Origin: Escherichia phage phiLLS
Strand: one strand, 5' to 3'
Length of the DNA: 64,000 nucleotides
Sequence record: NC_047822.1
In this document: one piece after another, positions 9,380 to 55,692 of the stretch
Numbering within the stretch: position 1 is the first letter of the stretch
Layout of the letters: each line of letters opens with the position of its first letter
Notes under the pieces: generated by a model
The model's database searches: none
Seen by the model: the letters and a program-made list of their open reading frames with translations, nothing else
Told to the model about the DNA's origin: nothing
Translations under genes and position numbers: made by a program

Positions 9380-9873
9380 AATTTTATTCTAAGTCTAGGA
9401 ATTTCAGGCTCCTCTTGATGGACTTGATAAATAACAGGGCTATTATTTACCAGAATATAGCTTATATAAGCTGGAACATAGGATAATACAAATGGATATG
9501 GAACTTTAGCCACATAGCATTGGTATTTTCCATTATAAATTCTAGCTGAATGCAAAACTTTAGAGGTGACAACATCATAGAACGTAGTTTTCTTCCAATT
9601 AATAAGATTTCCATCAGAATCTATAAATTGGTTACGCTTTGACCCCACTAATTGAGACAACATTGATATTCTACCCCTAATAGGATAGAGCTTGTATGGT
9701 AATTCTTTCCGTTTCTCAAATAGAATAAGCCTACGTTGAGAAAACGTGCCAGGCAACTTCCTGTTATCTAGCACATATTTATTATATCTTGTTGTAATTA
9801 CGGAATAATCACCTTCTTGCTCAATTGATACAAATGCCCGTAACGCATAGACGGGCAATTTGAAATTAAGCAC
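9376..9873 (-). CDS. hypothetical protein
   Basis: 165 aa ORF, translationally coupled between helicase and polymerase. Confidence 0.5.
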   Translation of the reverse strand: MLNFKLPVYALRAFVSIEQEGDYSVITTRYNKYVLDNRKLPGTFSQRRLILFEKRKELPYKLYPIRGRISMLSQLVGSKRNQFIDSDGNLINWKKTTFYDVVTSKVLHSARIYNGKYQCYVAKVPYPFVLSYVPAYISYILVNNSPVIYQVHQEEPEIPRLRIKL

Positions 9874-29269: not shown

Positions 29270-29462
29270 TACACCCTCCTTCTCTAACTAAGACTACTAT
29301 TATAACTCATTCGAGGGCGGATGTCAATATAATTTTTCTCTTAGATATTGTATTTTGATCTGTGCTAAGAAAATTGATCAGAATGTCAAAATTTTATTGA
29401 CACCACCATAACTTTTGTATAAGATATATACATAACTTAAAAAATTTGACAAGGAAATAAAA

Positions 29463-29954
29463 ATGAACACTGAAATAACACAAGACCTACTAAGAACCTA
29501 CTTTGACTATAAAGATGGAGAATTGTTTTACAAACCAACCTATAAAACCCCTGCGGGAAGAATATCCAAAAAAGCAGGTAAATCTGCCAGACTAACTCCG
29601 TGTAACGGGTACTATCGTATAAATGTACCAAGAATAGGTGTACAGAAAGAACATAGGATGATTTTCCTATATCATGAAGGATACCTACCAGAAGTAGTAG
29701 ATCATATTGATAGGGATAAAGAAAATAATAGGATAGAGAACCTTAGGGCATCTAATCTTCAGGACAACGCTATTAATCGCTCCATAAGTAAGAGTAATAC
29801 CTCTGGTATTGTGGGTGTCCATTATGATGAATCGTATGGTAAGTGGGTTGTAACGTATAGGGGTAAGTACTTTGGAAGATTTGATACCAAAGAAGAAGCT
29901 GCCGAAGTTAATGCTAATGTTCGTGCCCTTGATCAAACCCGTATAAATAGTTGA
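29463..29954 (+). CDS. HNH homing endonuclease with AP2-like DNA-binding domain
   Basis: 163 aa; VDHIDRDKENNRIENLRASN HNH motif; paralog of 33690, 37181, 54193 ORFs. Confidence 0.8.
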   Translation: MNTEITQDLLRTYFDYKDGELFYKPTYKTPAGRISKKAGKSARLTPCNGYYRINVPRIGVQKEHRMIFLYHEGYLPEVVDHIDRDKENNRIENLRASNLQDNAINRSISKSNTSGIVGVHYDESYGKWVVTYRGKYFGRFDTKEEAAEVNANVRALDQTRINS

Positions 29955-30037
29955 GTATCTAATATCACACATCTCACGTTAAAAGCAAGCAAATTTTTTA
30001 TTTAAATGCAATATCATAGGCTTATTTAAAATTGTAG

Positions 30038-30066
30038 TTGCTTTTTACTGTATATATTGGTATAAT
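30038..30066 (+). promoter_or_regulatory. sigma70-type early promoter
   Basis: TTGCTT-17-TATAAT. Confidence 0.55.
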
Positions 30067-30139
30067 ATATTTGTAAGTTGATAAACAAGATCTTTTTGTT
30101 GATCCTCTGTTAGCGAAGTACACTATAGGAGTGTTATTT

Positions 30140-30892
30140 ATGGGAAAAGCACGTCAAAAAAGAGAGAACCGCAATGGTTCAAGAAAGCGTGGCAACAAAT
30201 ATGAGAATAACGTAATTCAGGCTGATTTTTCTAATGATTACGCTAACCCAGTTGCTAAATCCCTAGTAGGTAAAAACCGCGAGCAAAAATCATATATCAA
30301 TATGATCAAGAACAACACAGTGACTGTGGGTATCGGTGAGCCAGGTACTGGTAAAACCTTTATCCCGTCCGTTCTTGCAGCTCAGGAACTAGTAGACATT
30401 CACTCAGATATTGAGCAAGTGATTCTCGTACGTCCTAATGAACCTCTAGGTAAGTCTCTTGGTATGCTTCCTGGTGATCTAGCGGAAAAGCTAGAGCCTT
30501 GGTTGGAGCCAATAGCTGATGGTATGAAATGGGCCATCGGCGATCATGCATATAAGGGATATGTCGAACGTCAGAAAATTAAATTTTTGGCTATCGAACA
30601 TGCTCGTGGCAGAACTTTCAACAACTCCTATGTAATTGTCGATGAAGCTCAGAATATTTCCGTTGAGGCAATGATTTGTCTCCTAACTCGTGTAGGACAA
30701 GACTGCCGTTTAATTATCTGCGGAGATATAGCTCAGAAAGACATTAAAGGTGACTCAGGTCTAGCACTCCTTATGGAAGTCTATGGGAAATACGAAAATG
30801 CCCCATTCTCAATGATCGAATTGATTGATAACGTTCGTTCTGTTGAGTCTAAAGCATTCTATGACATTTTTAAAGACATGGGGAAGGTGTAA
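30140..30892 (+). CDS. phoH: PhoH-like ATPase
   Basis: Walker A GEPGTGKT, Walker B VIVDEAQN; AGGAG SD before ATG at 30140. Confidence 0.85.
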   Translation: MGKARQKRENRNGSRKRGNKYENNVIQADFSNDYANPVAKSLVGKNREQKSYINMIKNNTVTVGIGEPGTGKTFIPSVLAAQELVDIHSDIEQVILVRPNEPLGKSLGMLPGDLAEKLEPWLEPIADGMKWAIGDHAYKGYVERQKIKFLAIEHARGRTFNNSYVIVDEAQNISVEAMICLLTRVGQDCRLIICGDIAQKDIKGDSGLALLMEVYGKYENAPFSMIELIDNVRSVESKAFYDIFKDMGKV

Positions 30893-30893
30893 T

Positions 30894-31115
30894 ATGGGAA
30901 ACGTAGTTCATCTGAGCCGTAAAACTAAAATACATCGTACTTCACTGAGTGCTGCTAATATGATTACACGTAAGGAAGGGGAAGAAAGTCCTAAGACAAC
31001 CCTAGCGTGGAAAATTGTAACCTCAAATCCAAATAAACCATTCAATTATAACGAGCTGAGCACCTCCATAGATATTTTATTAAAAGAAGTAGCTAGAGCT
31101 AAAGTAATTGAATAA
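30894..31115 (+). CDS. hypothetical protein
   Basis: 73 aa; start MGNVVHL with AAGGTG SD. Confidence 0.45.
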   Translation: MGNVVHLSRKTKIHRTSLSAANMITRKEGEESPKTTLAWKIVTSNPNKPFNYNELSTSIDILLKEVARAKVIE

Positions 31116-31257
31116 GCTAAAAAGCTAGACTGGTAATATATAGGGCCTGGGTATGAAAATACTCGGGCCTTTTCTATCAGAAAATTTTATTTGCCTAATG
31201 ACCGATAATAAAATAGAATATTCCTTAAATCCTGATAACTATAAAAAGGAAAGCCAA

Positions 31258-33588
31258 ATGAGCCATCGCATTGAAAAAGTAATTAAACGTGACGGTACTG
31301 TAGAAGACTTTGCTCCTGAAAAACTCAATGGTTGGGCAGAGTATGGTTGCAAAACAGTTGATGTAAGTTGGTCAGCCATTACTATGGCTGCTCAAAAAAC
31401 TCTGCCTAAAGGGGTTGTAGATTCCGATACTCTGATGGATGCATTAATTAAAGCTGCTGAAAGTCTTATCAAAGATAATCCAGCATACGATGTGCCAGCA
31501 AAGGAATTACGTCTTGCGCAAATGCGTAAACGCCTTTATGATTCTTTCGAACCACCCTCTCTACGCTTCTTCCATGACCATATGGTTAGCGTAGGTGCAT
31601 GGGAAGATATGAGTGCATGGATTACCGATGAGCAATTTGAAGCTCTGAATCAGGTTATAGACCACGATCGTGACCGTCTTTTTACTAGTGGTGGGCTGAA
31701 ACAGTTCTTTGATAAGTATTCCCGTCGTAACATAGCCACTGGTGAAATTTACGAAACCCCGCAGTTTGCCTACATGGGTATGGCAATGGCGATGTTATCT
31801 CAACCTAACTGGACAATTCTAGATGCAATCGACCTCTACAACGCAATGTCACTCCACAAAATCAACGTTCCTACGCCGCCACTGGTTGGTCTGCGCTCTA
31901 GTGACCGTGGATTTGCTAGTTGTTGCCTCGTGGATTCCACTGACACGTTGGATTCAATCGACACCGCCGAGCACATCGTCTTCAAAATGGTCGCAGCCAG
32001 AGCGGGAATCGGGTATCATCTTGAAAGCAGATCAATTGCTGATCCGGTGCGAAATGGGGCATTCCCGCATTCCGGAAAACTGCCATATTATCGACACATT
32101 GACCGCTCAGTAAAGGCCAATACTCAGCAAACTCGTGGTGGTTCTGCTACAGTGTCTTATCCATACTTCGACCCTGAAATCATTCAATTGATGCAGGTTA
32201 AGCAACAACGTGCTACAGATGAGAATAAAATCGATAAGATGGATTATTCTCTGAGCTTCAACAATCTTTTACTAAAACGTTATCTTAAAAACGAAGATAT
32301 TACGCTAATGTCATACTTCTATGCTCCAGAAGTTCATGAAGCGTTTTATAGTGATGACGAGGCTAAATTTGAAGAAATCTACGTGGCAGCGGAGAAACGT
32401 GTGGCATCTCTTACAAAGATCGACCACGAAGGAAAAACAGTTCCTGCAGCTCCTAAAGTCTCTGCAAAAGAAATCCTAGATACTTGGCTACGTATCCGAA
32501 TGGAAACAGGACGTATGTATGCTCATCACATCGGGGAATCTAATCGTCACGGTAACTTCCTTGATCCAATCCGTATGACAAACCTTTGTGTTGAAATTAC
32601 TCAGCCTACGCGCCCGTTCCATCATATCACAGAACTGTATAAGACAAAAGAGCAGCTTGATCAAATGAAGCCGGAGGATATTGGTGAAGTATCTCTGTGT
32701 AACTTAGGTGGTGTTGTACTGGGGCGCATGGAATCTCTGGCTGAGTGGGAAAAAACTTGCTACATCCTCCTGAAATTCGTTGATACAATTATTGAAATTC
32801 AGGATTATCCGTTCCCAACTATGGAATATACGGCTAAGAAACGTCGTAATGTTGGTATTGGCCTAATGAACGCAGCAGGTGCAATGGCAGCAGAAGGTCT
32901 GGCTTATGAAGGTATTGAAGCCCGTAACTGGATTCACCGTGAGGCTGAAAAACTGTCCTACTTCCTGCATAAAGCCTCTGTACGCCTAGCTAAAGAACAG
33001 GGTGCATGTGAGTGGTTTGATCGTACTAAACCATCTAAAGGAATTCTGGTAATCGACACGTACAAGAAAACTGTTGATGAACTGGTATCCGTAGGTCTAG
33101 AAATGGATTGGGAGTCTCTGCGTGCAGATATTCTGAAATACGGTATGCGTAACTCTGTTCTGACTGCTCAGATGCCAGGAGAAAGTTCTTCTGTTCTGTT
33201 AGGTGTTACTAATTCTATTGAACCGCCTCGTAAGATTGTATCTATCAAGGGTAGTGCAGTGAATAAAGTAATTGCAATTGCTCCGGGTGCAACCGATTGG
33301 GAAACGTTAATGAGCTATAAACTGGCTTATGATGTAGATCGTATCGAGTGGATCAAATGGGTAGCAACTATGCAGAAATTCTTCAGTCAGTCTATCAGTA
33401 CGAATATGTACTATGACTACACCAAGTTTGAGAATGAAATCATTCCTGGCCCAGTAGTAGTTCGTGATTTCATGACTGCTGTTAAGTATGGGTGGAAGAC
33501 TTTCTACTACGCAAACTTCAACACCGCAAATGGTGGGGGTGCTGGAGAAGAAGCAGCCGGTTGTGCATCCGGTGGTTGTACTATTTAA
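31258..33588 (+). CDS. nrdA: ribonucleoside-diphosphate reductase large subunit (class I RNR alpha)
   Basis: N-terminal ATP-cone (IKRDGTVEDF), catalytic core motifs, C-terminal Cys pair; start MSHRIEK with SD. Confidence 0.9.
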   Translation: MSHRIEKVIKRDGTVEDFAPEKLNGWAEYGCKTVDVSWSAITMAAQKTLPKGVVDSDTLMDALIKAAESLIKDNPAYDVPAKELRLAQMRKRLYDSFEPPSLRFFHDHMVSVGAWEDMSAWITDEQFEALNQVIDHDRDRLFTSGGLKQFFDKYSRRNIATGEIYETPQFAYMGMAMAMLSQPNWTILDAIDLYNAMSLHKINVPTPPLVGLRSSDRGFASCCLVDSTDTLDSIDTAEHIVFKMVAARAGIGYHLESRSIADPVRNGAFPHSGKLPYYRHIDRSVKANTQQTRGGSATVSYPYFDPEIIQLMQVKQQRATDENKIDKMDYSLSFNNLLLKRYLKNEDITLMSYFYAPEVHEAFYSDDEAKFEEIYVAAEKRVASLTKIDHEGKTVPAAPKVSAKEILDTWLRIRMETGRMYAHHIGESNRHGNFLDPIRMTNLCVEITQPTRPFHHITELYKTKEQLDQMKPEDIGEVSLCNLGGVVLGRMESLAEWEKTCYILLKFVDTIIEIQDYPFPTMEYTAKKRRNVGIGLMNAAGAMAAEGLAYEGIEARNWIHREAEKLSYFLHKASVRLAKEQGACEWFDRTKPSKGILVIDTYKKTVDELVSVGLEMDWESLRADILKYGMRNSVLTAQMPGESSSVLLGVTNSIEPPRKIVSIKGSAVNKVIAIAPGATDWETLMSYKLAYDVDRIEWIKWVATMQKFFSQSISTNMYYDYTKFENEIIPGPVVVRDFMTAVKYGWKTFYYANFNTANGGGAGEEAAGCASGGCTI

Positions 33589-33620
33589 TAAAAACAAGGA
33601 GATCTTCGGGTCTCCTTTTT
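33589..33620 (+). terminator. rho-independent terminator
   Basis: ggagatcttcgggtctcc hairpin + TTTTTC. Confidence 0.65.
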
Positions 33621-33634
33621 CTTTGAAATTTTAC

Positions 33635-33663
33635 TTGCTAATCGCTATCAGATTTGCTATAAT
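33635..33663 (+). promoter_or_regulatory. sigma70-type early promoter
   Basis: TTGCTA-17-TATAAT. Confidence 0.55.
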
Positions 33664-33689
33664 ATCTTCATTAATTAGGGAGATATAAT

Positions 33690-34190
33690 TTGATTACGCA
33701 AGAAGAATTAAAACTTTTATTGGATTATGGCCCAATAAAAGGAATCTTTATATGGAAAGAACGAAATCCAGATAAAGGTGGATTTAACAAACAATTCGCA
33801 GGAAAAGTAGCAGGAACATATGATGATCTTGGCTACCTACGAATTAAGATTAACGGTGTGCAATATTTAGCGCATAGATTGGCCTTCCTTTTCGTAAAAG
33901 GATATATGCCAGAATTAGTAGACCATAAAGACCGTAATCCTAGTAATCTAGCTTGGGACAACCTTAGAGAAGCTACCAATTCTCAAAATATAATGAACTC
34001 AGCTGCTAGATCAGATAATAAACTAGGACTAAAGAACATAAGAATCAAGGGAAACTCATATCAGGTACGAATAGGCAAGAATGGCAAATCGTACACCAAG
34101 ACTATGAAATCTCTTGAAGAAGCCATAGAATGGCGGGATACTAAACTAGCTGAACTACACCAAGAATTTGCTAACAATGGAGAAGATTAA
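33690..34190 (+). CDS. HNH homing endonuclease (AP2-like domain), free-standing between nrdA and nrdB
   Basis: 166 aa; VDHKDRNPSNLAWDNLREAT HNH motif; TTG start with GGGAG SD. Confidence 0.8.
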   Translation: MITQEELKLLLDYGPIKGIFIWKERNPDKGGFNKQFAGKVAGTYDDLGYLRIKINGVQYLAHRLAFLFVKGYMPELVDHKDRNPSNLAWDNLREATNSQNIMNSAARSDNKLGLKNIRIKGNSYQVRIGKNGKSYTKTMKSLEEAIEWRDTKLAELHQEFANNGED

Positions 34191-35335
34191 TGACGACTTT
34201 ACTTAACCTAGCGTGGGATCATACTAATCCTGAACTTTTCTTAGGTGACTCCCTGGGTATTGCTGACTATGTACGAGTAGCCCACCCTGAGTTAGAACGT
34301 CTAGCACTGCTACAGCGTTCCCAATTCTGGACTGAGACAGAAATTAGTCTAGAGAGCGACAAAAAACAATGGCCTAATCTCCAACGAGAAATTCAGGAAA
34401 TTACACTCCTGAACTTAGCATGGCAGACTCAAACTGATTCCTTTATCAGTCGTGCCCCTGAAGCAGCTATTATGCCGCTTGTAAGTCGTCCAGAATTGGA
34501 AGGTATGCTCAAACAGTGGAGCTATTTTGAAGACCTGCATAGTCGTGCTTATAGCAATATTATTCGTAATGTTCTGACTGATCCAGCAGAATTTATTGAT
34601 TCTGTAACCAAAAACCAAGAAGCATTCGCACGAATCGCTGATTCTGTTGAACTATTCGATGAACTGTACCAGTTAGGTCAGTATTTCATCGCAGTACGCG
34701 ATCATCGTGGCGACAATACATATCCAGAAACTGAGTTCCCTGAAGTTAAACGTGAAACTCAGGCTAAACTATTAGACGCTTACTTTGCTATCTATGGTCT
34801 GGAAGCAATGCAGTTTTACGCATCCTTTGCATGTACCTTTGCACTAGCAGAGAACGATATTCTGCAAGGTATTGCTAAAAATCTGCAATTAATCGCTAAA
34901 GATGAGGCTCTGCATACTCAGATGTCCAAAGCAATCATCCAGATTATGTTCCAGCAGTTTGACAAAGACCTGGTGGATGAAGCCGTGGCTAAAGCACCAG
35001 CACAGCTCCTGAAAACTCTGAAAACTGAAATTGAATGGGGTCATTTCATTTTCAAAGGTCGTAGTCTGATTGGCTTGAATGCAGAACTTCTAGAAGAATA
35101 TTTGTACTTTGTGGGGCGTAATGCATTTATGCACATCGGTGTAGAATGGCCTAGTCATTTACCAGTAATCACCAAAAATCCTATTCCGTGGATCATGAAC
35201 TGGTTGGATACTACTTCTCTACAGCCTGCTCCACAAGAAATCCAGATTGGTGCAGCCTACCGTGTAGGTCAGGTAACTGAGACCTCTACTGATACTCTGA
35301 AAGATCTGGGCAATGAATTTGGAGATTTCTTATGA
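34190..35335 (+). CDS. nrdB: ribonucleoside-diphosphate reductase small subunit (class I RNR beta)
   Basis: 381 aa; di-iron ligand helices (EDLHSRAYS, EALHTQ). Confidence 0.9.
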   Translation: MTTLLNLAWDHTNPELFLGDSLGIADYVRVAHPELERLALLQRSQFWTETEISLESDKKQWPNLQREIQEITLLNLAWQTQTDSFISRAPEAAIMPLVSRPELEGMLKQWSYFEDLHSRAYSNIIRNVLTDPAEFIDSVTKNQEAFARIADSVELFDELYQLGQYFIAVRDHRGDNTYPETEFPEVKRETQAKLLDAYFAIYGLEAMQFYASFACTFALAENDILQGIAKNLQLIAKDEALHTQMSKAIIQIMFQQFDKDLVDEAVAKAPAQLLKTLKTEIEWGHFIFKGRSLIGLNAELLEEYLYFVGRNAFMHIGVEWPSHLPVITKNPIPWIMNWLDTTSLQPAPQEIQIGAAYRVGQVTETSTDTLKDLGNEFGDFL

Positions 35336-35865
35336 TTACAGCAATGTATGCAGTTGGGCCGAATGGGGAGTTCGGCCTCCGCGGTAAACTTCCATGGGGT
35401 TCCTTCAAAGAAGAACTAGATGCTTTCTATTCTCAACTGGACGTGTTGAATCCAGATAACATCATCATTGGTGCGGGTACTTATTTAGCTCTTCCATACG
35501 CCGTTAGAGAACGTATGATTGGAGCTTCTGACCTATTTATTCGTGCTGATCGTCCACTGCCAGATGATATTACACATGATATTTACACCCCAATTTCTAA
35601 GATTGGGGATGCTTTACCTACTTTTCTGAAAGATCAGCAGACAGTAGTTCTAGGTGGGGCTAACCTTCTTCTAGAAATGTATATTCATGGACATATTGAA
35701 AGTGCTTTTGTATCCACAATCTTTAGTGATCAAAAACTAGAGGCAGATGTACATCTGGATAATACGATTCTAGATTACAACTATGAATCTACTCGTTTAG
35801 TTTACGCAACTGGCGCAAACAGTGATAACAGCCTGCGATTTGTACAGGAATTGGTTACTTATTAA
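35332..35865 (+). CDS. folA: dihydrofolate reductase
   Basis: 177 aa; N-terminal MITAMYAVGPNGEFGLRGKLPW DHFR signature. Confidence 0.85.
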   Translation: MITAMYAVGPNGEFGLRGKLPWGSFKEELDAFYSQLDVLNPDNIIIGAGTYLALPYAVRERMIGASDLFIRADRPLPDDITHDIYTPISKIGDALPTFLKDQQTVVLGGANLLLEMYIHGHIESAFVSTIFSDQKLEADVHLDNTILDYNYESTRLVYATGANSDNSLRFVQELVTY

Positions 35866-36704
35866 TGCAACAATACTTAAAAATTTTGACAGATGTAATT
35901 TTACTAGGTGAACCACGTAACGATCGTACAGGGACAGGCACAGTTTCAATTTTTGATTCCTATGCTAAGTTCGATCTACGTGAAGGGTTCCCGGCTGTAA
36001 CTACTAAACGCCTGGCCTGGAAATCAGTAGTAGGAGAACTCTTATGGTTCTTGTCTGGTTCCACAAATCTCCATGATCTACGTGTATTCACCTTTGGTCG
36101 TGACGAAGGACAGTGGACCATCTGGACTCCAAATTATGAAGACCAAGCTATAAGTATGGGGTATGATAAGGGTAATCTAGGACCAGTATATGGTAAACAA
36201 TGGCGCAACTTTGGTGGACGAGATCAGATCCTAGAACTCATTGAGGGTCTCAAGAATAATCCACATGGTCGTAGACACCTAGTATCTGCATGGAACGTAG
36301 CTGAACTTGATAAAATGGCATTACCACCCTGTCACTACGGCTTCCAGTGCTATGTAAGTAACGATGGATACCTAGATCTTAAATGGACACAACGTTCTGT
36401 AGATTGTTTCCTCGGTTTACCTTTCAATATTGCTAGTTATGCTTTATTAACGCATATATTAGCAAAACTGACAGGATTAAAACCTCGTTATCTTATCTTT
36501 AGTGGCGGTGATACTCATATCTATAATGACCACATGGAACAGGTAGAAGAACAGGTAAAACGTAAACCTCGTGCTTTACCTACTCTAGTAATGCCAGAGT
36601 TTGTAGATCTTTACGATTTATTAGAAAATAATACGGCAGCTTGGTCCTTCCAGCTTGAAGGATATGATCCGCATCCGGCTCTTAAAGCTAAAATGTCCTC
36701 TTAA
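35865..36704 (+). CDS. thyA: thymidylate synthase
   Basis: 279 aa; RRHLVSAWNV...ALPPCHYGFQCYV active-site motif. Confidence 0.9.
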   Translation: MQQYLKILTDVILLGEPRNDRTGTGTVSIFDSYAKFDLREGFPAVTTKRLAWKSVVGELLWFLSGSTNLHDLRVFTFGRDEGQWTIWTPNYEDQAISMGYDKGNLGPVYGKQWRNFGGRDQILELIEGLKNNPHGRRHLVSAWNVAELDKMALPPCHYGFQCYVSNDGYLDLKWTQRSVDCFLGLPFNIASYALLTHILAKLTGLKPRYLIFSGGDTHIYNDHMEQVEEQVKRKPRALPTLVMPEFVDLYDLLENNTAAWSFQLEGYDPHPALKAKMSS

Positions 36705-36706
36705 CT

Positions 36707-36735
36707 TAAATAGCCCTTCGGGGCTATTATATTTG
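36707..36735 (+). terminator. rho-independent terminator
   Basis: tagcccttcggggcta hairpin + T-rich tail. Confidence 0.6.
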
Positions 36736-36743
36736 AAATTGTA

Positions 36744-36773
36744 TTTGCTTATTAAGTACAATTTCAAATATAA
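36744..36773 (+). promoter_or_regulatory. sigma70-type early promoter
   Basis: TTGCTT-18-TATAAT. Confidence 0.55.
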
Positions 36774-36804
36774 TATACTCAATAAGTACAAAAAGGATAA
36801 TAAA

Positions 36805-37188
36805 ATGAGTAAAGAAATTGAATTAGAACAAGCCCTTCTGAGTTACTCCAATTACTTGCAGAGTGATAAAGAAACTATTACTAAGGAACAGGTATTATTA
36901 ATACTAGACTCTATCACTTCTAAATTCAGGACTTTAGAAGACTACTACTCTGTAGGCAATGGAGATGAGAAGGTAGAGTTACGTCTAAATCTTCTAGAAG
37001 ATATGGGTTGGGACGAGGAAGATCAATTAGGATATTTAGGTATATCTACAGAAATTCTAGAAAATACAGAGCATGAAAATATACTTGAAGTAAAGAGCAA
37101 AAGTGCTATTCGATATAATACTTATGGTACAGGTATTACAGGAATAAAAGCATTACTTAGTATAGACATAGGATGGTTAGATGAGTAA
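36805..37188 (+). CDS. hypothetical protein
   Basis: 127 aa from MSKEIELE with AAGGA SD. Confidence 0.5.
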   Translation: MSKEIELEQALLSYSNYLQSDKETITKEQVLLILDSITSKFRTLEDYYSVGNGDEKVELRLNLLEDMGWDEEDQLGYLGISTEILENTEHENILEVKSKSAIRYNTYGTGITGIKALLSIDIGWLDE

Positions 37189-37729
37189 AAAGTTACCTAG
37201 CCAAGAAAGATTAAAAGAAATACTAATCTATGACCCAGATACTGGTATATTTACTAATAAGGTAAGTCGTGGTAGGGGAGGAAAAGCAGGTTCGCTAGCT
37301 GGATACCTAAGAAAAGACGGCTATATAACTATTAAGATAGATAAAATAGATTATTTAGCGCATAGGTTAGCCTTTCTATACATGACAGGATCAATACCTG
37401 ATTTAATAGACCACAAAAATAGAATTAGGTCAGATAATAGGTGGATAAATCTAAGAGAAGCTACAAGCCAGTCTAATAACAGAAATTGTACCGCATCGAG
37501 TAAATCTGGATATCTAGGTGTACACTGGAACAAACAACTACAGAAATGGCAAGTACAGGTGATTGATAATAATGGTAAAAATATTTACGGGGGTGTTTTT
37601 GACTACTTAGACCTAGAAAGTGCGGTCATAAAGGCTAATGAACTAAGAAAAACACTTCATGGTAACGAAGCAGTTATAGAAGATTTCTATACCAACTATT
37701 ACCCACCAATAGAGGAACTTAATAAGTGA
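37181..37729 (+). CDS. HNH homing endonuclease (AP2-like domain)
   Basis: 182 aa; IDHKNRIRSDNRWINLREAT HNH motif. Confidence 0.8.
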   Translation: MSKKLPSQERLKEILIYDPDTGIFTNKVSRGRGGKAGSLAGYLRKDGYITIKIDKIDYLAHRLAFLYMTGSIPDLIDHKNRIRSDNRWINLREATSQSNNRNCTASSKSGYLGVHWNKQLQKWQVQVIDNNGKNIYGGVFDYLDLESAVIKANELRKTLHGNEAVIEDFYTNYYPPIEELNK

Positions 37730-38202
37730 GCGTTTTCCACATTTACACAGATGGTGCTTGTAAGTCTAACCCAGGTCCAGGTGCTTGGGGTTTTATTGTC
37801 TATGATGATAACGACGATCGTTTAGGTTCTAAATCTGGATATAGTCCTAAAACTACAAATAATGAGATGGAACTCACGGCTATTGTAGAGGCTCTACGTT
37901 GGTCAGTTAAAAAAGATAATAGACCAATTGTTATCTATACTGACTCTGCTTATTGCAAAAATGGCATGGAAAGTTGGATGTTTTCTTGGCAAAGGAAAGG
38001 CTGGAAGAAAGCAGATGGTGAAGTTCCTCTTAATCTAGAACTTTGGCAGGAAGCATTTAAATTAACACAGCAGTATATCAACTTTCATAATACTAACCCT
38101 ACCTTTATTAAGGTTAAAGGACATTCTGGTATTAGTGGTAATGAAGCTGTAGACGCCTTATGTAACACAGTTATTACTGAAGCTGAAATGGCTGAGATGT
38201 AA
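37726..38202 (+). CDS. rnhA: ribonuclease H
   Basis: 158 aa; IYTDGACKSNPGPGAWG and YTDSAY, GHSG motifs. Confidence 0.85.
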   Translation: MSVFHIYTDGACKSNPGPGAWGFIVYDDNDDRLGSKSGYSPKTTNNEMELTAIVEALRWSVKKDNRPIVIYTDSAYCKNGMESWMFSWQRKGWKKADGEVPLNLELWQEAFKLTQQYINFHNTNPTFIKVKGHSGISGNEAVDALCNTVITEAEMAEM

Positions 38203-38222
38203 TAAATAAATTAAAAATTCTC

Positions 38223-38251
38223 TTGCTTAAATCTCTCTAATTTAGTATAAT
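38223..38251 (+). promoter_or_regulatory. sigma70-type early promoter
   Basis: TTGCTT-17-TATAAT. Confidence 0.55.
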
Positions 38252-38278
38252 ATTTGTATTGAAAGTGAGGAGGGCTTT

Positions 38279-38557
38279 ATGCGGATTTATAACTCAAATT
38301 CATTAGGATTTAAACCATTGAGAAAACGTGCACAATCACCTCGTCAAATAAGAAAGGCTAATATTGGTGAGCCAGAAACACGTCTTCCACCTCCTCCAGA
38401 ACAACGTTTAGTTTATCTGGATGAAGAGTTAGCTGAACGCGAAAGAAAAGCTCAAGAAGAGATTGAGCGTAAGAAAATGTGTACTGCTCCAGCGTATAAT
38501 AAAGGAGCGTATCAATATGTTTCCGATGCAGAACAAGCCAAGATGGTTGGTAGATAA
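38279..38557 (+). CDS. hypothetical protein
   Basis: 92 aa ORF with GAGGAGGG SD. Confidence 0.5.
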   Translation: MRIYNSNSLGFKPLRKRAQSPRQIRKANIGEPETRLPPPPEQRLVYLDEELAERERKAQEEIERKKMCTAPAYNKGAYQYVSDAEQAKMVGR

Positions 38558-38573
38558 TTTTTAAAAAATTCAT

Positions 38574-38602
38574 TTGCTAAACGCTTCAAATTCTCGTATA
38601 AT
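38574..38602 (+). promoter_or_regulatory. sigma70-type early promoter (canonical copy of repeated module)
   Basis: AAAAATTCATTTGCTA -35, 17 bp, TATAAT, then CATAAATTGA. Confidence 0.65.
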
Positions 38603-38640
38603 ATACTTCATAAATTGATAAACAAAAAGGAAAATAAATA

Positions 38641-43339: not shown

Positions 43340-44135
43340 AACAGCGAGCCGATTACGCTGAACTTGTCTTAATGTAAGATGCGTCGAGCACTAAGATTCG
43401 TTGAATAGAGTCGGTGGGTTAGTTGTAAAACTAGTACACAGGGGGCGGCAATCCCGGTTAGTGGCTAGAACGTGTAAAATGAGGCGTCTGAAACCTCTCC
43501 CCTAAACTCTTCTCTAATTTATAAATAGTGGGGTGTGGAAATCACTTATGTAGTAACACTGCCGTCCTAGTATAATTGGTATTATCAAGCCGTAACCGGT
43601 GGAAGATGTAGGTTCGAATCCTACGGTCGGTAAGAACTGGATAACTGATGCTTTTAACGTAAAAGCTTCCGAGGTTAGTTGCGCACTGCCTAAACCACGC
43701 GGTAGTTGGTTCCAGACTAACCAACCAGTCTGCTGAATAGTTTTATTACGATTTAACTATGTCCAGGCTAAAGAAGAACTTTAGAAGGTATTCTAGGATA
43801 GTGAAGTTCTTTCTCCATATCGGAGTAGTTTTTCAAGCTATCCACAAAGTGGGAAATGCTGACATGAGAGATGTCACTAATGGTGCACAATAGCACAGGT
43901 AATTCGCGATAACTCCTGTTGAGTAGCAGCAAAAGGCGGGAAGTCATGACCCCAAGCCTAACCGAGTCCTCAATATACCGCAGGACATAACCACTAAGTC
44001 ACCCTGACTTAAACTGGAAAATAATAGACGTTACTGTATTTTGTCTTGAAATACTTAATGAGTGAGACTTATGACTCTCCCGGTATCGTCTGTATTTTTA
44101 AGAGTTTTTTACGAGAGTTCTTAAAAATACTTAAA
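43340..44135 (+). ncRNA. candidate non-coding RNA region (promoter-driven, ORF-free, tRNA-like fragments)
   Basis: ~800 bp with no ORF above ~26 codons; internal T-arm-like GTAGGTTCGAATCCTAC at 43608-43624; several hairpins. Confidence 0.3.
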
Positions 44136-47839: not shown

Positions 47840-47914
47840 GGTTCTCAAGCTCATATGGTATGAGCACCCGGCTCATAACCGGAAGGTACGTAGGTTCGAA
47901 TCCTCGGGGAGCCA
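47840..47914 (+). tRNA. tRNA with CAT anticodon (Met/fMet/Ile2)
   Basis: acceptor and D stems pair; anticodon loop CTCATAA; CCA encoded; T-stem imperfect. Confidence 0.65.
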
Positions 47915-49156: not shown

Positions 49157-49241
49157 GGGCGTTTATTCCGTAAGTGGTAGCGGAGGGGATTGTAAATCCC
49201 TGGTCATTGCGACTCGAGTGGTTCGACTCCATTAACGCCCA
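49157..49241 (+). tRNA. tRNA-Tyr (anticodon GTA), class II
   Basis: perfect acceptor gggcgtt/aacgccc; anticodon loop TTGTAAA; CCA encoded. Confidence 0.8.
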
Positions 49242-49251
49242 CCAATTTAAT

Positions 49252-51810: not shown

Positions 51811-51837
51811 CAATAAGTAAATTTATTAAAAATTCAT

Positions 51838-51866
51838 TTGCTATTCTGCTTTATTATCTGTATAAT
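51838..51866 (+). promoter_or_regulatory. sigma70-type early promoter
   Basis: AAAAATTCATTTGCTA-17-TATAAT. Confidence 0.6.
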
Positions 51867-51899
51867 ATATTTTATAAAGTGAAGAGAAGGAAAGCAAAA

Positions 51900-52058
51900 T
51901 GAAACACAAGATAGCTCAAGTTTTTATGGCATTATGGTGTATGCCAATAGCTATAACAGCATTTAATCTAGATACTTTTACTATAGAAGAAAAATGTATC
52001 GGATTAGTTAGCGGTTTTAGTATGCTGGGCTTATCTTTGCTGTGGTTAAAGAAATAAT
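51900..52058 (+). CDS. hypothetical small membrane protein
   Basis: 52 aa ORF (MKHKIAQVFMALWCMPIAITAF...) with AAGGAAAG SD; below track cutoff. Confidence 0.4.
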
Positions 52059-52488: not shown

Positions 52489-52509
52489 CCAATTTCAAGA
52501 AAAACGCAG

Positions 52510-52538
52510 TTGCTTGATGCTTAATTTCTTGTTATAAT
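52510..52538 (+). promoter_or_regulatory. sigma70-type early promoter preceding ORF-free region
   Basis: TTGCTT-17-TATAAT. Confidence 0.55.
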
Positions 52539-52559
52539 ATTTATATAAATTGATGCGAA

Positions 52560-52870
52560 AATAGCTGCCTAGATACCAGGTGTATGACGTCTACACTAGC
52601 AGAGCTACCGAAAAAGAGATCCTCAGGATAAACGTCGTAGCAAAATTAGTCTGGTATCCATCAATTTAGTTCACTAAGGTATTAGCTCGACCTAGGACTG
52701 GCTGCCAAAAAGCACGATCCCTACGATTCGGGAGAAGTTCTAGATTAGTCCACTAGATTCAGCGGCAACTGAATAGTGTATTGGGTTTGCGAGATGACGC
52801 AGTTCCTTCCGCTCGAAGCGAAGGTGCTGTAGTTACGCCGAGCTAATAGCCTTAGTAAACTAAAGAATTT
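52560..52870 (+). ncRNA. candidate structured non-coding RNA (~310 nt, ORF-free, downstream of promoter)
   Basis: long imperfect hairpin 52562-52608; further hairpins near 52800-52825; no ORF, no canonical tRNA fold. Confidence 0.3.
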
Positions 52871-52871
52871 G

Positions 52872-52947
52872 GGGGAATGGGTCTGCATGGAGTGGACACC
52901 TCGCTTGCACCGAGGACATCAGAACGGTTCGATTCCGTTATTCTCCA
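52872..52947 (+). tRNA. tRNA-Ala (anticodon TGC)
   Basis: perfect anticodon stem CCTCG/CGAGG, loop CTTGCAC, T-arm AACGG/CCGTT; 3' end CAA rather than CCA. Confidence 0.65.
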
Positions 52948-52955
52948 CAAAATAC

Positions 52956-53029: not shown

Positions 53030-53144
53030 CCAAATTTGATGGTCAGAGTAAATTAAACCTACTATCTCGGTTGAGCTGTTTTAATGGGTTCGAATCCCAG
53101 CGGGGCGTAACTGCCTGGTGTGATAGAGGCATCATCTTATTATT

Positions 53145-53232
53145 GGAAGAGCAAATCGAATTGGCGACGAAAACCGCTTGGAAAGTGGCTGACTGGTAAA
53201 ACGGCTTGAGAGTTCAAATCTCTCCTCTTCCG
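53145..53232 (+). tRNA. tRNA-Ser (anticodon GGA), class II
   Basis: perfect acceptor ggaagag/ctcttcc, T-arm GAGAG/CTCTC, long variable region; CCA encoded; anticodon assignment tentative. Confidence 0.65.
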
Positions 53233-53247
53233 CCAAACAATTTATAT

Positions 53248-53339
53248 GGTAGGTCAATCCAACGGCTGGCGCTGGACTCCGACTTGAAATCGGTTGATCG
53301 TAGTGATACGGTGTAAGGGTTCGATCCCCTTACCTACCT
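53248..53339 (+). tRNA. tRNA-Ser (anticodon TGA), class II
   Basis: perfect acceptor ggtaggt/acctacc, T-arm AAGGG/CCCTT, loop CTTGAAA; CCA encoded. Confidence 0.7.
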
Positions 53340-53342
53340 CCA

Positions 53343-53478
53343 AATCTTGGAATATGCCGGAATTGGTAGACGGGACTGCCGAATAGGTTTACTAGGAACA
53401 TCCACTCCTAGAAATATACCTTAAAAGCGGTTGAGTTAAATGGTCTAACTCATGAAGGTTCAAATCCTTCTATTCCTT
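53343..53478 (+). ncRNA. tRNA-like element / possible pseudo-tRNA with insertion
   Basis: canonical T-arm GAAGG-TTCAAAT-CCTTC and acceptor-like 3' strand; upstream D-loop consensus AATTGGTAGAC; no consistent cloverleaf. Confidence 0.3.
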
Positions 53479-53707
53479 GATACATCAATGGCTCAAAGTG
53501 TAACGGTGCTATTTGATGCACTTGGAAAGACTTTCCCGACATGCGTTCGGGGGTAAGCTTCTGAGGCTAGAATAGAAGAGTTTCTGGGAGCCGCCACAAT
53601 CGAAAATTCGTACTCGTCTTGAGCTGCGTGCAATAGGAGATAACTTGATTAGTATTCTAGAACATGCTAATTGAGGATGGTTTCGCTAACCCTGCGAGTT
53701 TTCAATT

Positions 53708-55324: not shown

Positions 55325-55342
55325 CCAAATTTAAAAATTCAT

Positions 55343-55371
55343 TTGCTTTCTCCCTTATTTATTGCTATAAT
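55343..55371 (+). promoter_or_regulatory. sigma70-type early promoter
   Basis: AAAAATTCATTTGCTT-17-TATAAT. Confidence 0.6.
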
Positions 55372-55401
55372 ATTTATATAAATTAATGAGAGGGAAACCA
55401 A

Positions 55402-55692
55402 ATGAAACGTTATCTTTCTGTAATATTCCAAACTGGTGGCCAAAGATACACCTATGAATTTCCATCCTCTTGGAAAATCAAAGAGGGTGATCAAGTAGTA
55501 GTGCTAACACCGCGTGAAGGATATAAAGTAGTAACGGTTAAACAAGTATTTCCAAAAGATCATGAACCAGCTAAAGGCATCCGCTATAAGATGATTCATG
55601 GTGTGGTTCGTCAAGTACCACGAACTGAGGTAGAAGTAGATAAGACTGGAGAAACTAAATTCCATTATACTTCTTACTTAGACAGTGTGTGA
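55402..55692 (+). CDS. hypothetical protein
   Basis: 96 aa ORF with GAGGGAAA SD. Confidence 0.5.
   Translation: MKRYLSVIFQTGGQRYTYEFPSSWKIKEGDQVVVLTPREGYKVVTVKQVFPKDHEPAKGIRYKMIHGVVRQVPRTEVEVDKTGETKFHYTSYLDSV

What the first reader, a model, noticed from the sequence alone, without database searches (positions are those of the whole stretch)
52560..52870. Second ORF-free structured segment downstream of a promoter inside the tRNA cluster
Promoter 52510-52538 is followed by about 310 bp lacking ORFs and canonical tRNA folds but rich in hairpins, including a long imperfect helix at 52562-52608. tRNA-Ala follows immediately. This is a candidate small RNA or a precursor spacer with processing sites.
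Basis: seen in the sequence. Interest (0 to 1): 0.5.

Follow-up and report, generated by a model that had tools for sequence, protein, structure and literature searches.

The report
Phage T5 stable RNA "RNA2H"
The segment is this T5-like phage's copy of RNA2H, a small non-coding RNA long annotated in phage T5 with no known function; comparison with related phages shows a conserved, knotted fold that no public RNA family library contains.

Summary
A conserved early promoter (52510-52538, T5's annotated P13b) is followed by about 325 nt with no conserved ORF and no tRNA, then tRNA-Ala at 52872. The segment is already annotated in GenBank. T5 (AY543070) and Salmonella phage 5 (AJ604531) list a 172-nt misc_RNA, "RNA2H, stable RNA with unknown functions", which maps to window 52680-52851.

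Two things are new here. The first is an anatomy supported by covariation: a 23-bp closing helix P1 with a conserved bulged G, helices P2, P3, C1 and C2, two swappable hairpins (PB, PD), and a pseudoknot between a junction strand and the C1 loop. All of these covary across Tequintavirus/Epseptimavirus, Sugarlandvirus (Klebsiella) and Novosibvirus (Proteus). The second is a 5' hairpin that carries a roughly 95-nt structured expansion (D1), found in only 83 phage records.

The annotated RNA2H ends face each other in P1 with a 2-nt 3' overhang. I therefore infer that RNase III excises it from the tRNA-operon leader. Rfam 15 has no match. Viable T5 deletion mutants lack the region, so it is dispensable in the laboratory. 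Its function is still unknown; the most likely is a trans-acting accessory RNA. It is an already known entity and of moderate interest.

The parts
52510..52538 (+). Early sigma-70 promoter, the orthologue of T5 P13b: -35 TTGCTT (52510-15), extended -10 TGT-TATAAT (52530-38).
   Evidence: Sequence. Annotated as promoter P13b in AJ604531 and AY543070. Nearly invariant in 44 loci. Not listed by the consensus scan because the -35 matches only 3/6.
52545..52545 (+). Inferred transcription start (A of AUAAAUUGAUG).
   Evidence: Inference from the 6-nt distance to the -10 hexamer and from resemblance to the T5 PN25 start region (recalled from memory). Not tested.
52549..52665 (+). 5' hairpin P0. The base helix AUUGAUG/CAUCAAU is shared with all T5-likes. 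Here it carries the ~95-nt expansion D1: helix 52572-79/52651-58, hairpin 52580-96, hairpin 52604-41.
   Evidence: Most relatives have a 10-bp hairpin with a GAAA loop at this position. The long form occurs in 83 phage records, once per genome, at >=94.6% identity. Helix GAUACCAG/CUGGUAUC varies C-G / U-G / U-A.
52667..52862 (+). The whole P1-enclosed domain, which is the unit matched by the covariance models.
   Evidence: R1 scores 239.5 bits on + against 33 bits on -. z = -4.85.
52680..52851 (+). Mature RNA2H (172 nt), by transfer of the GenBank annotation.
   Evidence: The first and last 14 nt of the annotated rna2H of T5 and of phage 5 map exactly to these positions.
52667..52689 (+). P1 5' strand: outer 13 nt 52667-79, inner 10 nt 52680-89. 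Inferred cut between G52679 and U52680.
   Evidence: Seven pairs with changes on both sides across the T5-like and Sugarland-like sequences; the Proteus P1 also differs and still pairs.
52839..52862 (+). P1 3' strand: inner 52839-48, bulged G52849, outer 52850-62. Inferred cut between C52851 and U52852. C52672/A52857 is a mismatch.
   Evidence: The bulged G is present in T5-like, Sugarland-like and Proteus homologues.
52690..52693 (+). P2 5' strand ACCU, pairing with GGGU 52783-52786.
   Evidence: ACCU/GGGU, AUAC/GUAU and AACU/AGUU in the three clades.
52695..52701 (+). Pseudoknot 5' strand GGACUGG, pairing with the C1 loop UUAGUCC 52745-52751.
   Evidence: GGACU/AGUCC (T5-like); AGUC/GACU, AGUC/GGCU and AGCC/GGCU (Sugarland-like); GAACCA/UGGUUU and GAACUA/UGGUUC (Proteus).
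52704..52711 (+). Conserved single-stranded A-rich tract GCCAAAAA.
   Evidence: The CCAAAA core is conserved in T5-like and Sugarland-like sequences and in PM135; it varies in a few phages and reads GCCAAG in the other Proteus phages.
52712..52715 (+). P3 5' strand GCAC, pairing with GUGU 52776-52779.
   Evidence: GCAC/GUGU, ACAC/GUGU, AUGC/GCAU and AUGU/GCAU.
52718..52733 (+). PB, a variable hairpin (UCCC/GGGA stem in this window).
   Evidence: Replaced by at least four unrelated hairpins at the same position in other phages.
52739..52757 (+). C1 hairpin UCUAG/CUAGA, with a 9-nt loop that forms the pseudoknot.
   Evidence: UCUGAU/AUCAGA in L002/L003; CGGAG/CUCCG in Sugarland-like; GGGA/UCCC in Proteus.
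52758..52773 (+). C2 hairpin UUCAG/CUGAA, loop CGGCAA.
   Evidence: ACGC/GCGU (loop CUGGUAA) in Sugarland-like; GGAU/AUCC and GGGU/ACCC (loop UGGCG) in Proteus.
52789..52838 (+). PD, a long variable hairpin with base GCG/CGC.
   Evidence: Two non-homologous versions, D and D', among T5-likes. D' is shared with Sugarlandvirus at 80-86% identity. The base covaries C-G/U-A.
52852..52871 (+). Spacer left on the tRNA-Ala precursor after the inferred P1 cut. RNase P would remove it.
   Evidence: Position relative to the annotated RNA2H 3' end and the ARAGORN tRNA-Ala start. The processing steps are inferred.
52872..52948 (+). tRNA-Ala(UGC), the first tRNA of the transcript.
   Evidence: ARAGORN.

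Best explanation
The segment is the transcribed leader of the phage's P13b tRNA operon, and it encodes this phage's orthologue of T5 RNA2H.

Transcription starts near 52545. The RNA first forms a 5' hairpin (P0), which in this phage is enlarged by the D1 expansion. It then forms a compact domain closed by a 23-bp helix, P1 (52667-52689 with 52839-52862). Inside P1 there is a three-way junction (P1, P2, PD) and a four-way junction (P3, PB, C1, C2). A pseudoknot between the strand GGACUGG and the C1 loop locks the two together.

Inferred step: host RNase III makes a staggered cut in P1, at 52679/52680 and 52851/52852. This releases the 172-nt RNA2H, capped by a 10-bp helix with a 3' overhang. 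It also leaves a short monophosphorylated leader on the tRNA-Ala precursor, which RNase P then removes.

Inferred with lower certainty: the released RNA is a gene product in its own right, not processing debris. It would be a trans-acting accessory RNA that binds a host or phage factor. It is dispensable in the laboratory.
For: **Shown**
- The window is 97-98% identical to records in which the RNA and its promoter are annotated, and the ends map to 52680 and 52851.
- The element is present in about 425 T5-like records.
- The structure model gives 98.3% paired cells, and 28 pairs change on both sides. No shuffle of 500 reached these values. Slid controls gave at most 42% paired.
- Every helix, including the pseudoknot, has different but complementary sequences in T5-like, Sugarland-like and Proteus phages. 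A U-G intermediate lies between U-A and C-G in the pseudoknot (L044, L039, L042).
- The strand is +: 239.5 bits against 33 bits, and the one-sided changes in the helices are mostly G-U wobbles on +.
- The covariation-based fold costs -64.6 kcal/mol and the pseudoknot duplex adds about -7.4, against an MFE of -72.8.

**Supporting excision**
- The annotated 5' end pairs with A52848, and the 3' end extends by bulged G52849 plus C52850-C52851. This is a two-base-pair stagger, i.e. a 2-nt 3' overhang.
- The 13-bp outer and 9-10-bp inner lengths of P1 and the bulged G are kept in all three clades while other pairs covary.

**Supporting an independent function**
- The interior is conserved well beyond P1.
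- In Proteus phages the element has no P13b-like promoter in the ~150 nt upstream (by eye) and no adjacent tRNA-Ala. It sits between two ORFs.

**Supporting dispensability**
- The viable T5 mutants T5Mos (deletion 30661-38625) and T5-123 (deletion 29191-32442) span T5 RNA2H at 31808-31979 (PMC11464382).
Against: - 'Stable RNA' and its exact ends rest on the depositors' annotation. I could not reach the primary data (searches found nothing), so the ends might be predictions.
- No experiment links RNase III to this site. A bulge next to the scissile bond is unusual for a double cut.
- The covariation comes from few independent lineages (about three deep clades plus module swaps), and the A2 alignment was fitted to the model.
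- No partner, target or phenotype is known, and deletion mutants grow.
- The element was not found in Vibrio phage pVp-1.
Confidence: 0.6

Rival explanations
1. The segment is only a processing and stability platform. P1 serves just as an RNase III entry site that detaches the triphosphate 5' end and speeds maturation of the downstream tRNAs or mRNA. On this view RNA2H is a nuclease-resistant by-product with no function of its own.
For: It is promoter-proximal and sits directly upstream of tRNA-Ala in T5-like and Sugarland-like phages. In Proteus phages and some T5-likes an RBS and ORF follow P1 within about 10 nt. There is a precedent: RNase III takes part in phage T4 tRNA maturation (cited in PMC4810235). 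The element is dispensable.
Against: Only P1 would be needed for this role. Yet P2, P3, C1, C2 and the pseudoknot covary, and single-stranded tracts such as the CCAAAA core stay largely conserved across three clades. The 130 columns of 196 that are invariant among 30 T5-like sequences lie mostly outside the swappable hairpins.
Confidence: 0.22
2. It is a tRNA-like RNA. On this view the inner P1 helix is an acceptor-stem mimic, RNase P makes the 5' end, and the 3' end ...G-C-C is completed to GCCA by the host CCA-adding enzyme.
For: The annotated ends copy tRNA geometry: the 5' nucleotide is paired, followed by one unpaired base and CC. G-CC is invariant in T5-like and Sugarland-like sequences while its neighbours covary. 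The phage's own tRNA-Ala gene also lacks an encoded CCA. The same GenBank records call neighbouring species 'tRNA-like'.
Against: ARAGORN and the Rfam tRNA, tmRNA and Y-RNA-type models find nothing. In Proteus phages the site reads G-CU. The would-be 5' leader is fully base-paired with the trailer, which should hinder RNase P. I found no T-loop/D-loop pair.
Confidence: 0.08
3. It is a cis-acting regulatory leader, either a riboswitch-like sensor or a put-like antitermination RNA, that controls read-through into the tRNA genes.
For: It begins 0-40 nt after the start site of a strong promoter in T5-like and Sugarland-like phages. Its size and pseudoknotted junction architecture resemble those of large riboswitches. 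Alternative pairings exist in T5-likes (CUAGGACU/AGUUCUAG and CACUA/UAGUG).
Against: No terminator-like site or sequestered RBS follows P1. No Rfam riboswitch matches. The Proteus homologue has no P13b-like promoter in the ~150 nt upstream (by eye). The alternative P2 pairing is not conserved in Sugarland-like sequences.
Confidence: 0.07
4. It is a small protein-coding gene or a DNA-level site, such as an origin or a protein-binding palindrome.
For: Many automated annotations place 'hypothetical protein' CDSs here, mostly on the minus strand.
Against: The longest open stretch changes frame and strand between homologues. Hairpin swaps and indels ignore codon phase. Helices covary through G-U intermediates on one strand only. 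A DNA-binding palindrome would keep its sequence and not covary.
Confidence: 0.02

Closest known systems
RNA2H of bacteriophage T5 (misc_RNA rna2H, AY543070 31808-31979) and of Salmonella phage 5 (AJ604531)
   Same: It is an orthologue: the same promoter (P13b), the same downstream tRNA-Ala and tRNA-Leu, and 97-98% identity. The first and last 14 nt of the annotated RNA match the window exactly.
   Different: T5 has the short 10-bp P0 hairpin. This window, like phage 5, has the ~95-nt D1 expansion, which the phage 5 record leaves unannotated. T5 also has tRNA-Val between tRNA-Lys and the promoter, which this window lacks.
RNase III processing stems of rRNA operons, T7 early RNAs and the T4 tRNA cluster
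   Same: A long helix pairs the 5' and 3' flanks of a stable RNA. The ends are staggered by two base pairs. The element lies in a polycistronic stable-RNA transcript. RNase III involvement in T4 tRNA maturation is cited in PMC4810235.
   Different: Cleavage here is inferred, not shown. A conserved bulged G sits at the site. The enclosed RNA is a 172-nt pseudoknotted domain of unknown function, not an rRNA or an mRNA.
Stable RNAs of unknown function in phage tRNA clusters (T5 RNA I, III and IV; T4 species 1 and 2, recalled from memory)
   Same: They are small, abundant, non-tRNA RNAs co-transcribed with phage tRNAs, and their function is unknown.
   Different: There is no second copy of this fold in the window. 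I did not test similarity to the T4 RNAs.
Bacterial Y RNAs (YrlA) and other RNAs with a long bulged terminal stem plus a structured module
   Same: A long terminal helix formed by the two ends carries a conserved bulge and closes a compact structured module.
   Different: No Rfam Y-RNA-type match even at E <= 10. No Ro/Rsr gene is nearby. E. coli K-12 lacks Rsr (from memory). The resemblance is architectural only.
Large pseudoknotted riboswitches and the HK022 put antitermination RNA
   Same: It is promoter-proximal, about 170-200 nt long, and has multi-way junctions locked by a loop-strand pairing.
   Different: It has no expression platform and no family match. In Proteus phages it is not promoter-proximal.

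Membership tests
T5 RNA2H (GenBank-annotated stable RNA) | Sequence orthology to the annotated rna2H, including both ends | tested here: met
   97-98.7% identity to phage 5, Spc35 and GSP044. The first and last 14 nt of the annotated T5 and phage 5 rna2H match the window at 52680-93 and 52838-51.
T5 RNA2H (GenBank-annotated stable RNA) | Synteny: P13b promoter upstream, tRNA-Ala then tRNA-Leu downstream | tested here: met
T5 RNA2H (GenBank-annotated stable RNA) | Accumulates as a discrete stable RNA in infected cells | not testable with these tools
   Rests on the depositors' note. Paper searches found no accessible primary data.
RNase III double-strand processing site | Roughly two turns (>=20 bp) of mostly Watson-Crick helix | tested here: met
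   P1 has 22 standard pairs, one C.A mismatch and one bulged G.
RNase III double-strand processing site | Product ends staggered to leave a 2-nt 3' overhang | tested here: inconclusive
   The annotated ends 52680 and 52851 give exactly this geometry. Whether those ends were measured is unknown.
RNase III double-strand processing site | Cleavage depends on RNase III | not testable with these tools
   Needs an rnc mutant host or an in-vitro cleavage assay.
tRNA or tRNA-like RNA | Cloverleaf recognised by tRNA or tmRNA models | tested here: not met
   ARAGORN found none in 52492-52871. Rfam tRNA-clan models found no hit there, even at E <= 10.
tRNA or tRNA-like RNA | A 3' end of the form N-C-C(-A), conserved | tested here: not met
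   G-CC in T5-like and Sugarland-like sequences, but G-CU in all five Proteus homologues.
Any Rfam 15 family (riboswitches, ribozymes, 6S, Y RNA, GOLLD/ROOL and others) | Covariance-model match | tested here: not met
   Nothing reached gathering score. At E <= 10 there were only unrelated, non-recurring noise hits for the three clade representatives.
Riboswitch or attenuator leader | Expression platform (terminator, or an alternative helix that sequesters an RBS) | tested here: not met
   No terminator-like site on the + strand between 52545 and 52871. tRNA-Ala follows after a 20-nt spacer.
Structured RNA with a loop-strand pseudoknot | Compensatory changes in the crossing helix | tested here: met
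   Six sequence versions of the pairing in three clades, including U-A, U-G and C-G at one position.

The most novel reading that the evidence does not exclude
RNA2H would be the founding member of an undescribed class of about 170-220-nt pseudoknotted RNAs. The class would be specific to T5-like (Demerecviridae) phages of Enterobacterales. The RNA would be cut out of whatever transcript carries it and would act in trans. It might be a decoy or inhibitor of a host factor such as a nuclease or a defence system, in keeping with the anti-defence roles recently shown for neighbouring T5 tRNAs. It might instead be a new ribozyme. The swappable PB and PD hairpins and the D1 expansion would be the surfaces under diversifying selection.
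Probability: 0.3. Interest if true: 0.75.

Novelty: already known. Interest (0 to 1): 0.45.

Why it matters
Phage T5 is a classical model, and its tRNA region has recently become important because individual T5 tRNAs neutralise bacterial defences such as PARIS and retron Eco7. The same region holds several 'stable RNAs with unknown functions' that have carried that label in GenBank without a known function. This analysis gives one of them a comparative secondary structure with a pseudoknot, a defined family spanning at least four phage genera on four host genera, a specific search signature, and a testable processing model. That makes its function directly approachable through rnc hosts, pseudoknot and compensatory mutants, pull-downs, and host or defence panels. 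The element also belongs in Rfam, and the spurious 'hypothetical protein' CDSs drawn over it in many phage genomes need correcting.

Tried and rejected
- **Rfam.** Gathering-score search of the whole window, and E <= 10 searches of the segment and of the Klebsiella and Proteus homologues: no family.
- **Host origin.** No similarity in 5,426 E. coli genomes or in 72,556 plasmids. The P1 signature is absent from 185,579 bacterial and archaeal genomes.
- **RNAalifold helix P2 (CUAGGACU/AGUUCUAG) and hairpin PA (GCU/AGC)** from T5-like sequences alone: rejected, because neither can form in Sugarland-like sequences. The extension CACUA/UAGUG competes with C1 and loses a pair in L002/L003, where C1 has compensatory changes.
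- **Small hairpin UCG/CGA:** it varies only through wobbles. I replaced it with P2 (ACCU/GGGU), which has three covarying positions.
not supported.
- **Second copy or paralogue in the window:** none.
- **D1 as a mobile element:** rejected. It occurs at one locus per genome and only at this locus.
- **Conserved protein neighbour:** the ORFs upstream of the element in Epseptimavirus and in Proteus phages are unrelated. A protein-anchored search returned only Proteus phages.
- **More distant homologues:** none in Vibrio phage pVp-1 positions 36-48 kb with filters off, and none in two Vequintavirinae loci. IMG/VR and metagenome pattern scans returned only T5-like, Sugarland-like and Proteus-phage members plus chance hits such as L101.
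- **Literature:** four searches for T5 stable RNAs, RNase III or transcriptomes found no paper that describes RNA2H.
- **T-box-like specifier idea:** GCA in the C2 loop matches the tRNA-Ala anticodon, but I rejected this because the loop is GUC in L002 and GGUAA in Sugarland-like sequences.

Full report
**What the window is.** The window comes from a T5-like phage (Tequintavirus). It holds 21 ARAGORN tRNA genes between 44 and 56 kb. The 601 nt around the finding are 97-98.7% identical to Salmonella phages GSP044, Spc35 and phage 5.

**Checking the observation.**
- The promoter is present: TTGCTT (52510-15), a 17-nt spacer, TATAAT (52533-38), preceded by TGT, which makes an extended -10.
- The simple consensus scan missed it because the -35 hexamer matches only 3 of 6.
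- It is the orthologue of the promoter annotated as P13b in AJ604531 and AY543070. It is almost invariant in 44 homologous loci.
- Between tRNA-Lys (ends 52491) and tRNA-Ala (starts 52872) there is no tRNA or tmRNA and no Rfam match, even at E <= 10.
- ORFs are at most 47 aa. The longest open stretch changes frame and strand between homologues.
- The + strand folds far better than shuffles. For 52545-52871 the z-score is -3.8. For 52667-52862 it is -4.85.
It clashes with a helix that covaries.

**It is already annotated.** The GenBank records of phage 5 and of T5 itself carry a misc_RNA "RNA 2H / RNA2H, stable RNA with unknown functions", 172 nt long, just downstream of promoter P13b and 18-19 nt upstream of tRNA-Ala. 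The first and last 14 nt of both annotated RNAs match the window exactly, which places RNA2H at 52680-52851. I found no accessible paper describing it. "Stable" and the exact ends therefore rest on the depositors' word.

**Two parts.** BLAST shows that the 3' two-thirds (52659-52871) is present in about 425 T5-like records, down to about 71% identity. The 5' third is present in only 83.

Most relatives, including T5, have a 10-bp hairpin with a GAAA loop directly after the start site (P0). In this window the hairpin keeps its base, AUUGAUG/CAUCAAU (52549-55 with 52659-65). Its tip is replaced by a roughly 95-nt branched insert, D1. The main D1 helix, GAUACCAG/CUGGUAUC, occurs as C-G, U-G and U-A in different phages. 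D1 is always at this locus, once per genome, at >=94.6% identity. It is therefore an expansion segment and not a mobile element. The phage 5 record does not annotate it.

**Structure of the conserved domain.** Alignment of 30 distinct T5-like sequences (A1) shows 130 invariant columns of 196. Two hairpins interrupt this conservation because they have been swapped wholesale. PB has at least three unrelated versions among the T5-likes and further ones in Klebsiella phages, and PD has two. The replacements are always hairpins at the same position.

RNAalifold on these sequences gave a cloverleaf-like fold. The decisive information came from more distant homologues.
- A Klebsiella phage (Sugarlandvirus, L039) has, in the same place (promoter, element, tRNA-Ala, tRNA-Leu), an RNA that a covariance model built from the T5-like alignment finds at about 100 bits, E about 1e-28.
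- A second model that includes these sequences finds a homologue in Proteus phage PM135 (Novosibvirus) at 43.7 bits, E about 5e-13. Four further Proteus phages are 75-77% identical to it.

Across these three clades every helix changes sequence but stays complementary:

| Helix | T5-like | Sugarland-like | Proteus |
|---|---|---|---|
| P1 | 7 pairs change on both sides between the T5-like and Sugarland-like sets | (see left) | differs again and still pairs |
| P2 | ACCU/GGGU | AUAC/GUAU | AACU/AGUU |
| P3 | GCAC/GUGU | ACAC/GUGU | AUGC/GCAU |
| C1 | UCUAG/CUAGA (UCUGAU/AUCAGA in L002/L003) | CGGAG/CUCCG | GGGA/UCCC |
| C2 | UUCAG/CUGAA | ACGC/GCGU | GGAU/AUCC, GGGU/ACCC |
| Pseudoknot (strand after P2 with C1 loop) | GGACU/AGUCC | AGUC/GACU, AGUC/GGCU, AGCC/GGCU | GAACCA/UGGUUU, GAACUA/UGGUUC |

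On alignment A2 the full model, pseudoknot included, gives 98.3% paired cells, and 28 pairs have changes on both sides. No shuffle of 500 reached either value. Slid controls reached at most 42% paired.

Three caveats apply. A2 was fitted to the model. The independent lineages are few. The Proteus interior had to be aligned by hand.

The covariation-based nested fold costs -64.6 kcal/mol. The pseudoknot duplex adds about -7.4, which together is about equal to the MFE of -72.8. The RNAalifold helices P2 (CUAGGACU/AGUUCUAG) and PA cannot form in Sugarland-like sequences, so I dropped them.

The resulting anatomy in window coordinates:
- P1: 52667-89 with 52839-62, bulged G52849, C.A mismatch 52672/52857
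- P2: 52690-93 with 52783-86
- Pseudoknot: 52695-701 with 52745-51
- A-rich strand: 52704-11
- P3: 52712-15 with 52776-79
- PB: 52718-33
- C1: 52739-57
- C2: 52758-73
- PD: 52789-838

**Strand and molecule.** The models score 239.5 bits on + and 33 bits on -. One-sided changes in helices are mostly G-U wobbles on +. The promoter and all the tRNAs point the same way. This is an RNA structure, not a DNA site or a coding region.

**Processing (inferred).** The annotated 5' end, U52680, is the first base of the inner 10 bp of P1 and pairs with A52848. The annotated 3' end, C52851, lies two base pairs further out, beyond the bulged G52849. That is the two-base-pair stagger, or 2-nt 3' overhang, that RNase III leaves.

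The helix has 13 bp outside the cut and 9-10 bp inside it in all three clades. The bulged G and its neighbours (UAARG on one strand, G-CY-UUA on the other) stay fixed while other P1 pairs covary.

I therefore propose that RNase III excises RNA2H. This would leave a monophosphorylated 20-nt leader on the tRNA-Ala precursor for RNase P, and a separate 5' fragment (about 52545-52679) that in this phage contains the structured D1. RNase III involvement in phage T4 tRNA maturation is a precedent. None of this has been tested here.

The same end geometry also mimics a tRNA acceptor end (paired 5' base, one unpaired base, then CC). However, Proteus homologues read G-CU, no tRNA-like model matches, and the leader is fully paired. 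I rank that reading low.

**Function.** A pure processing signal would need only P1. The conserved junctions, the pseudoknot and the single-stranded tracts point to a folded RNA under selection for its own sake.

In Proteus phages the element has no P13b-like promoter in the ~150 nt upstream (by eye) and no adjacent tRNA-Ala. It sits between two small ORFs, with an RBS about 10 nt after P1. This argues against a role tied to this promoter or to tRNA-Ala, and for a self-contained, excisable RNA gene.

Two viable T5 deletion mutants, T5Mos (30661-38625) and T5-123 (29191-32442), remove RNA2H (31808-31979). This assumes that the paper, which cites AY543070, uses its numbering. The RNA is therefore an accessory function, like the neighbouring tRNAs that counter PARIS and retron defences.

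I could not identify a partner or a target. There is no conserved protein neighbour. There is no host homologue. No known RNA family matches.

**Distribution.** Members were found in Tequintavirus and Epseptimavirus (including Yersinia and Citrobacter phages), in Sugarlandvirus and in Novosibvirus. None was found in Vibrio phage pVp-1 or in two Vequintavirinae loci.

A P1 signature pattern hit 24 of 24 true members in IMG/VR and nothing else. It hit nothing in 185,579 bacterial and archaeal genomes.

**Verdict.** The additions from this work are the covariation-supported pseudoknotted fold, the family boundaries, the modular hairpin swapping, the D1 expansion, and a testable excision model. 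The function remains unknown.

Noticed in passing
window 53033-53707: ARAGORN and the Rfam tRNA model call nothing here. Yet 53144-53240 and 53300-53343 align to the two tRNA-Ser genes annotated in phage 5, and 53342-53707 aligns to its RNA1, RNA I and RNA III 'stable RNAs'. The small ORF trn2.14 of phage 5 is missing from the window.
   Followed up: partly
window 52872-52948, 49157-49244, 47840-47914, 43561-43632: The tRNA callers disagree. tRNA-Ala and tRNA-Tyr are called by ARAGORN only; tRNA-Ala reaches only a 20-bit tRNA-Sec match in Rfam. Two Rfam tRNA hits (40.3 and 35.5 bits) are not called by ARAGORN. These may be atypical or tRNA-like phage RNAs.
   Followed up: no
window 52718-52733 and 52789-52838; loci L002-L012, L039, L041: The PB and PD hairpins occur in several mutually unrelated versions that are shuffled among phages. 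The D' version of PD is shared between Epseptimavirus and Sugarlandvirus at 80-86% identity. Recombinants L007 and L010 join the two PD types inside the base helix and break one pair.
   Followed up: partly
L090 and L095 (metagenome contigs), P0 hairpin: The short 5' hairpin is present as its exact reverse complement (GAGGAUUUCUCCUC, not GAGGAGAAAUCCUC). The hairpin has been inverted in place, so the GAAA loop is not essential.
   Followed up: no
L089 about 9437-10640 (Proteus phage PM135, record about 64437-65640): A promoter about 88% identical to the Sugarland-type P13b promoter used as the query is followed by about 1.2 kb with no annotated ORF and no ARAGORN tRNA, though it contains T-arm-like sequences. 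It may hold further unannotated structured RNAs.
   Followed up: no
Homologous loci in many GenBank phage records (for example NC_048781, NC_042093, MH830339, PP738788): Automated pipelines annotate short 'hypothetical protein' CDSs, mostly on the minus strand, on top of RNA2H. No ORF is conserved, so these are probably mis-annotations.
   Followed up: yes
window 52520-52555, 51818-51905, 55331-55402: The core of P13b (ATGCTTAATTTCTTGTTATAATATTTATAT) recurs at other promoters of the tRNA region (P11 and P13a of phage 5). It also recurs inside the ligB gene of many T5-like phages. It is a shared early-promoter cassette.
   Followed up: no
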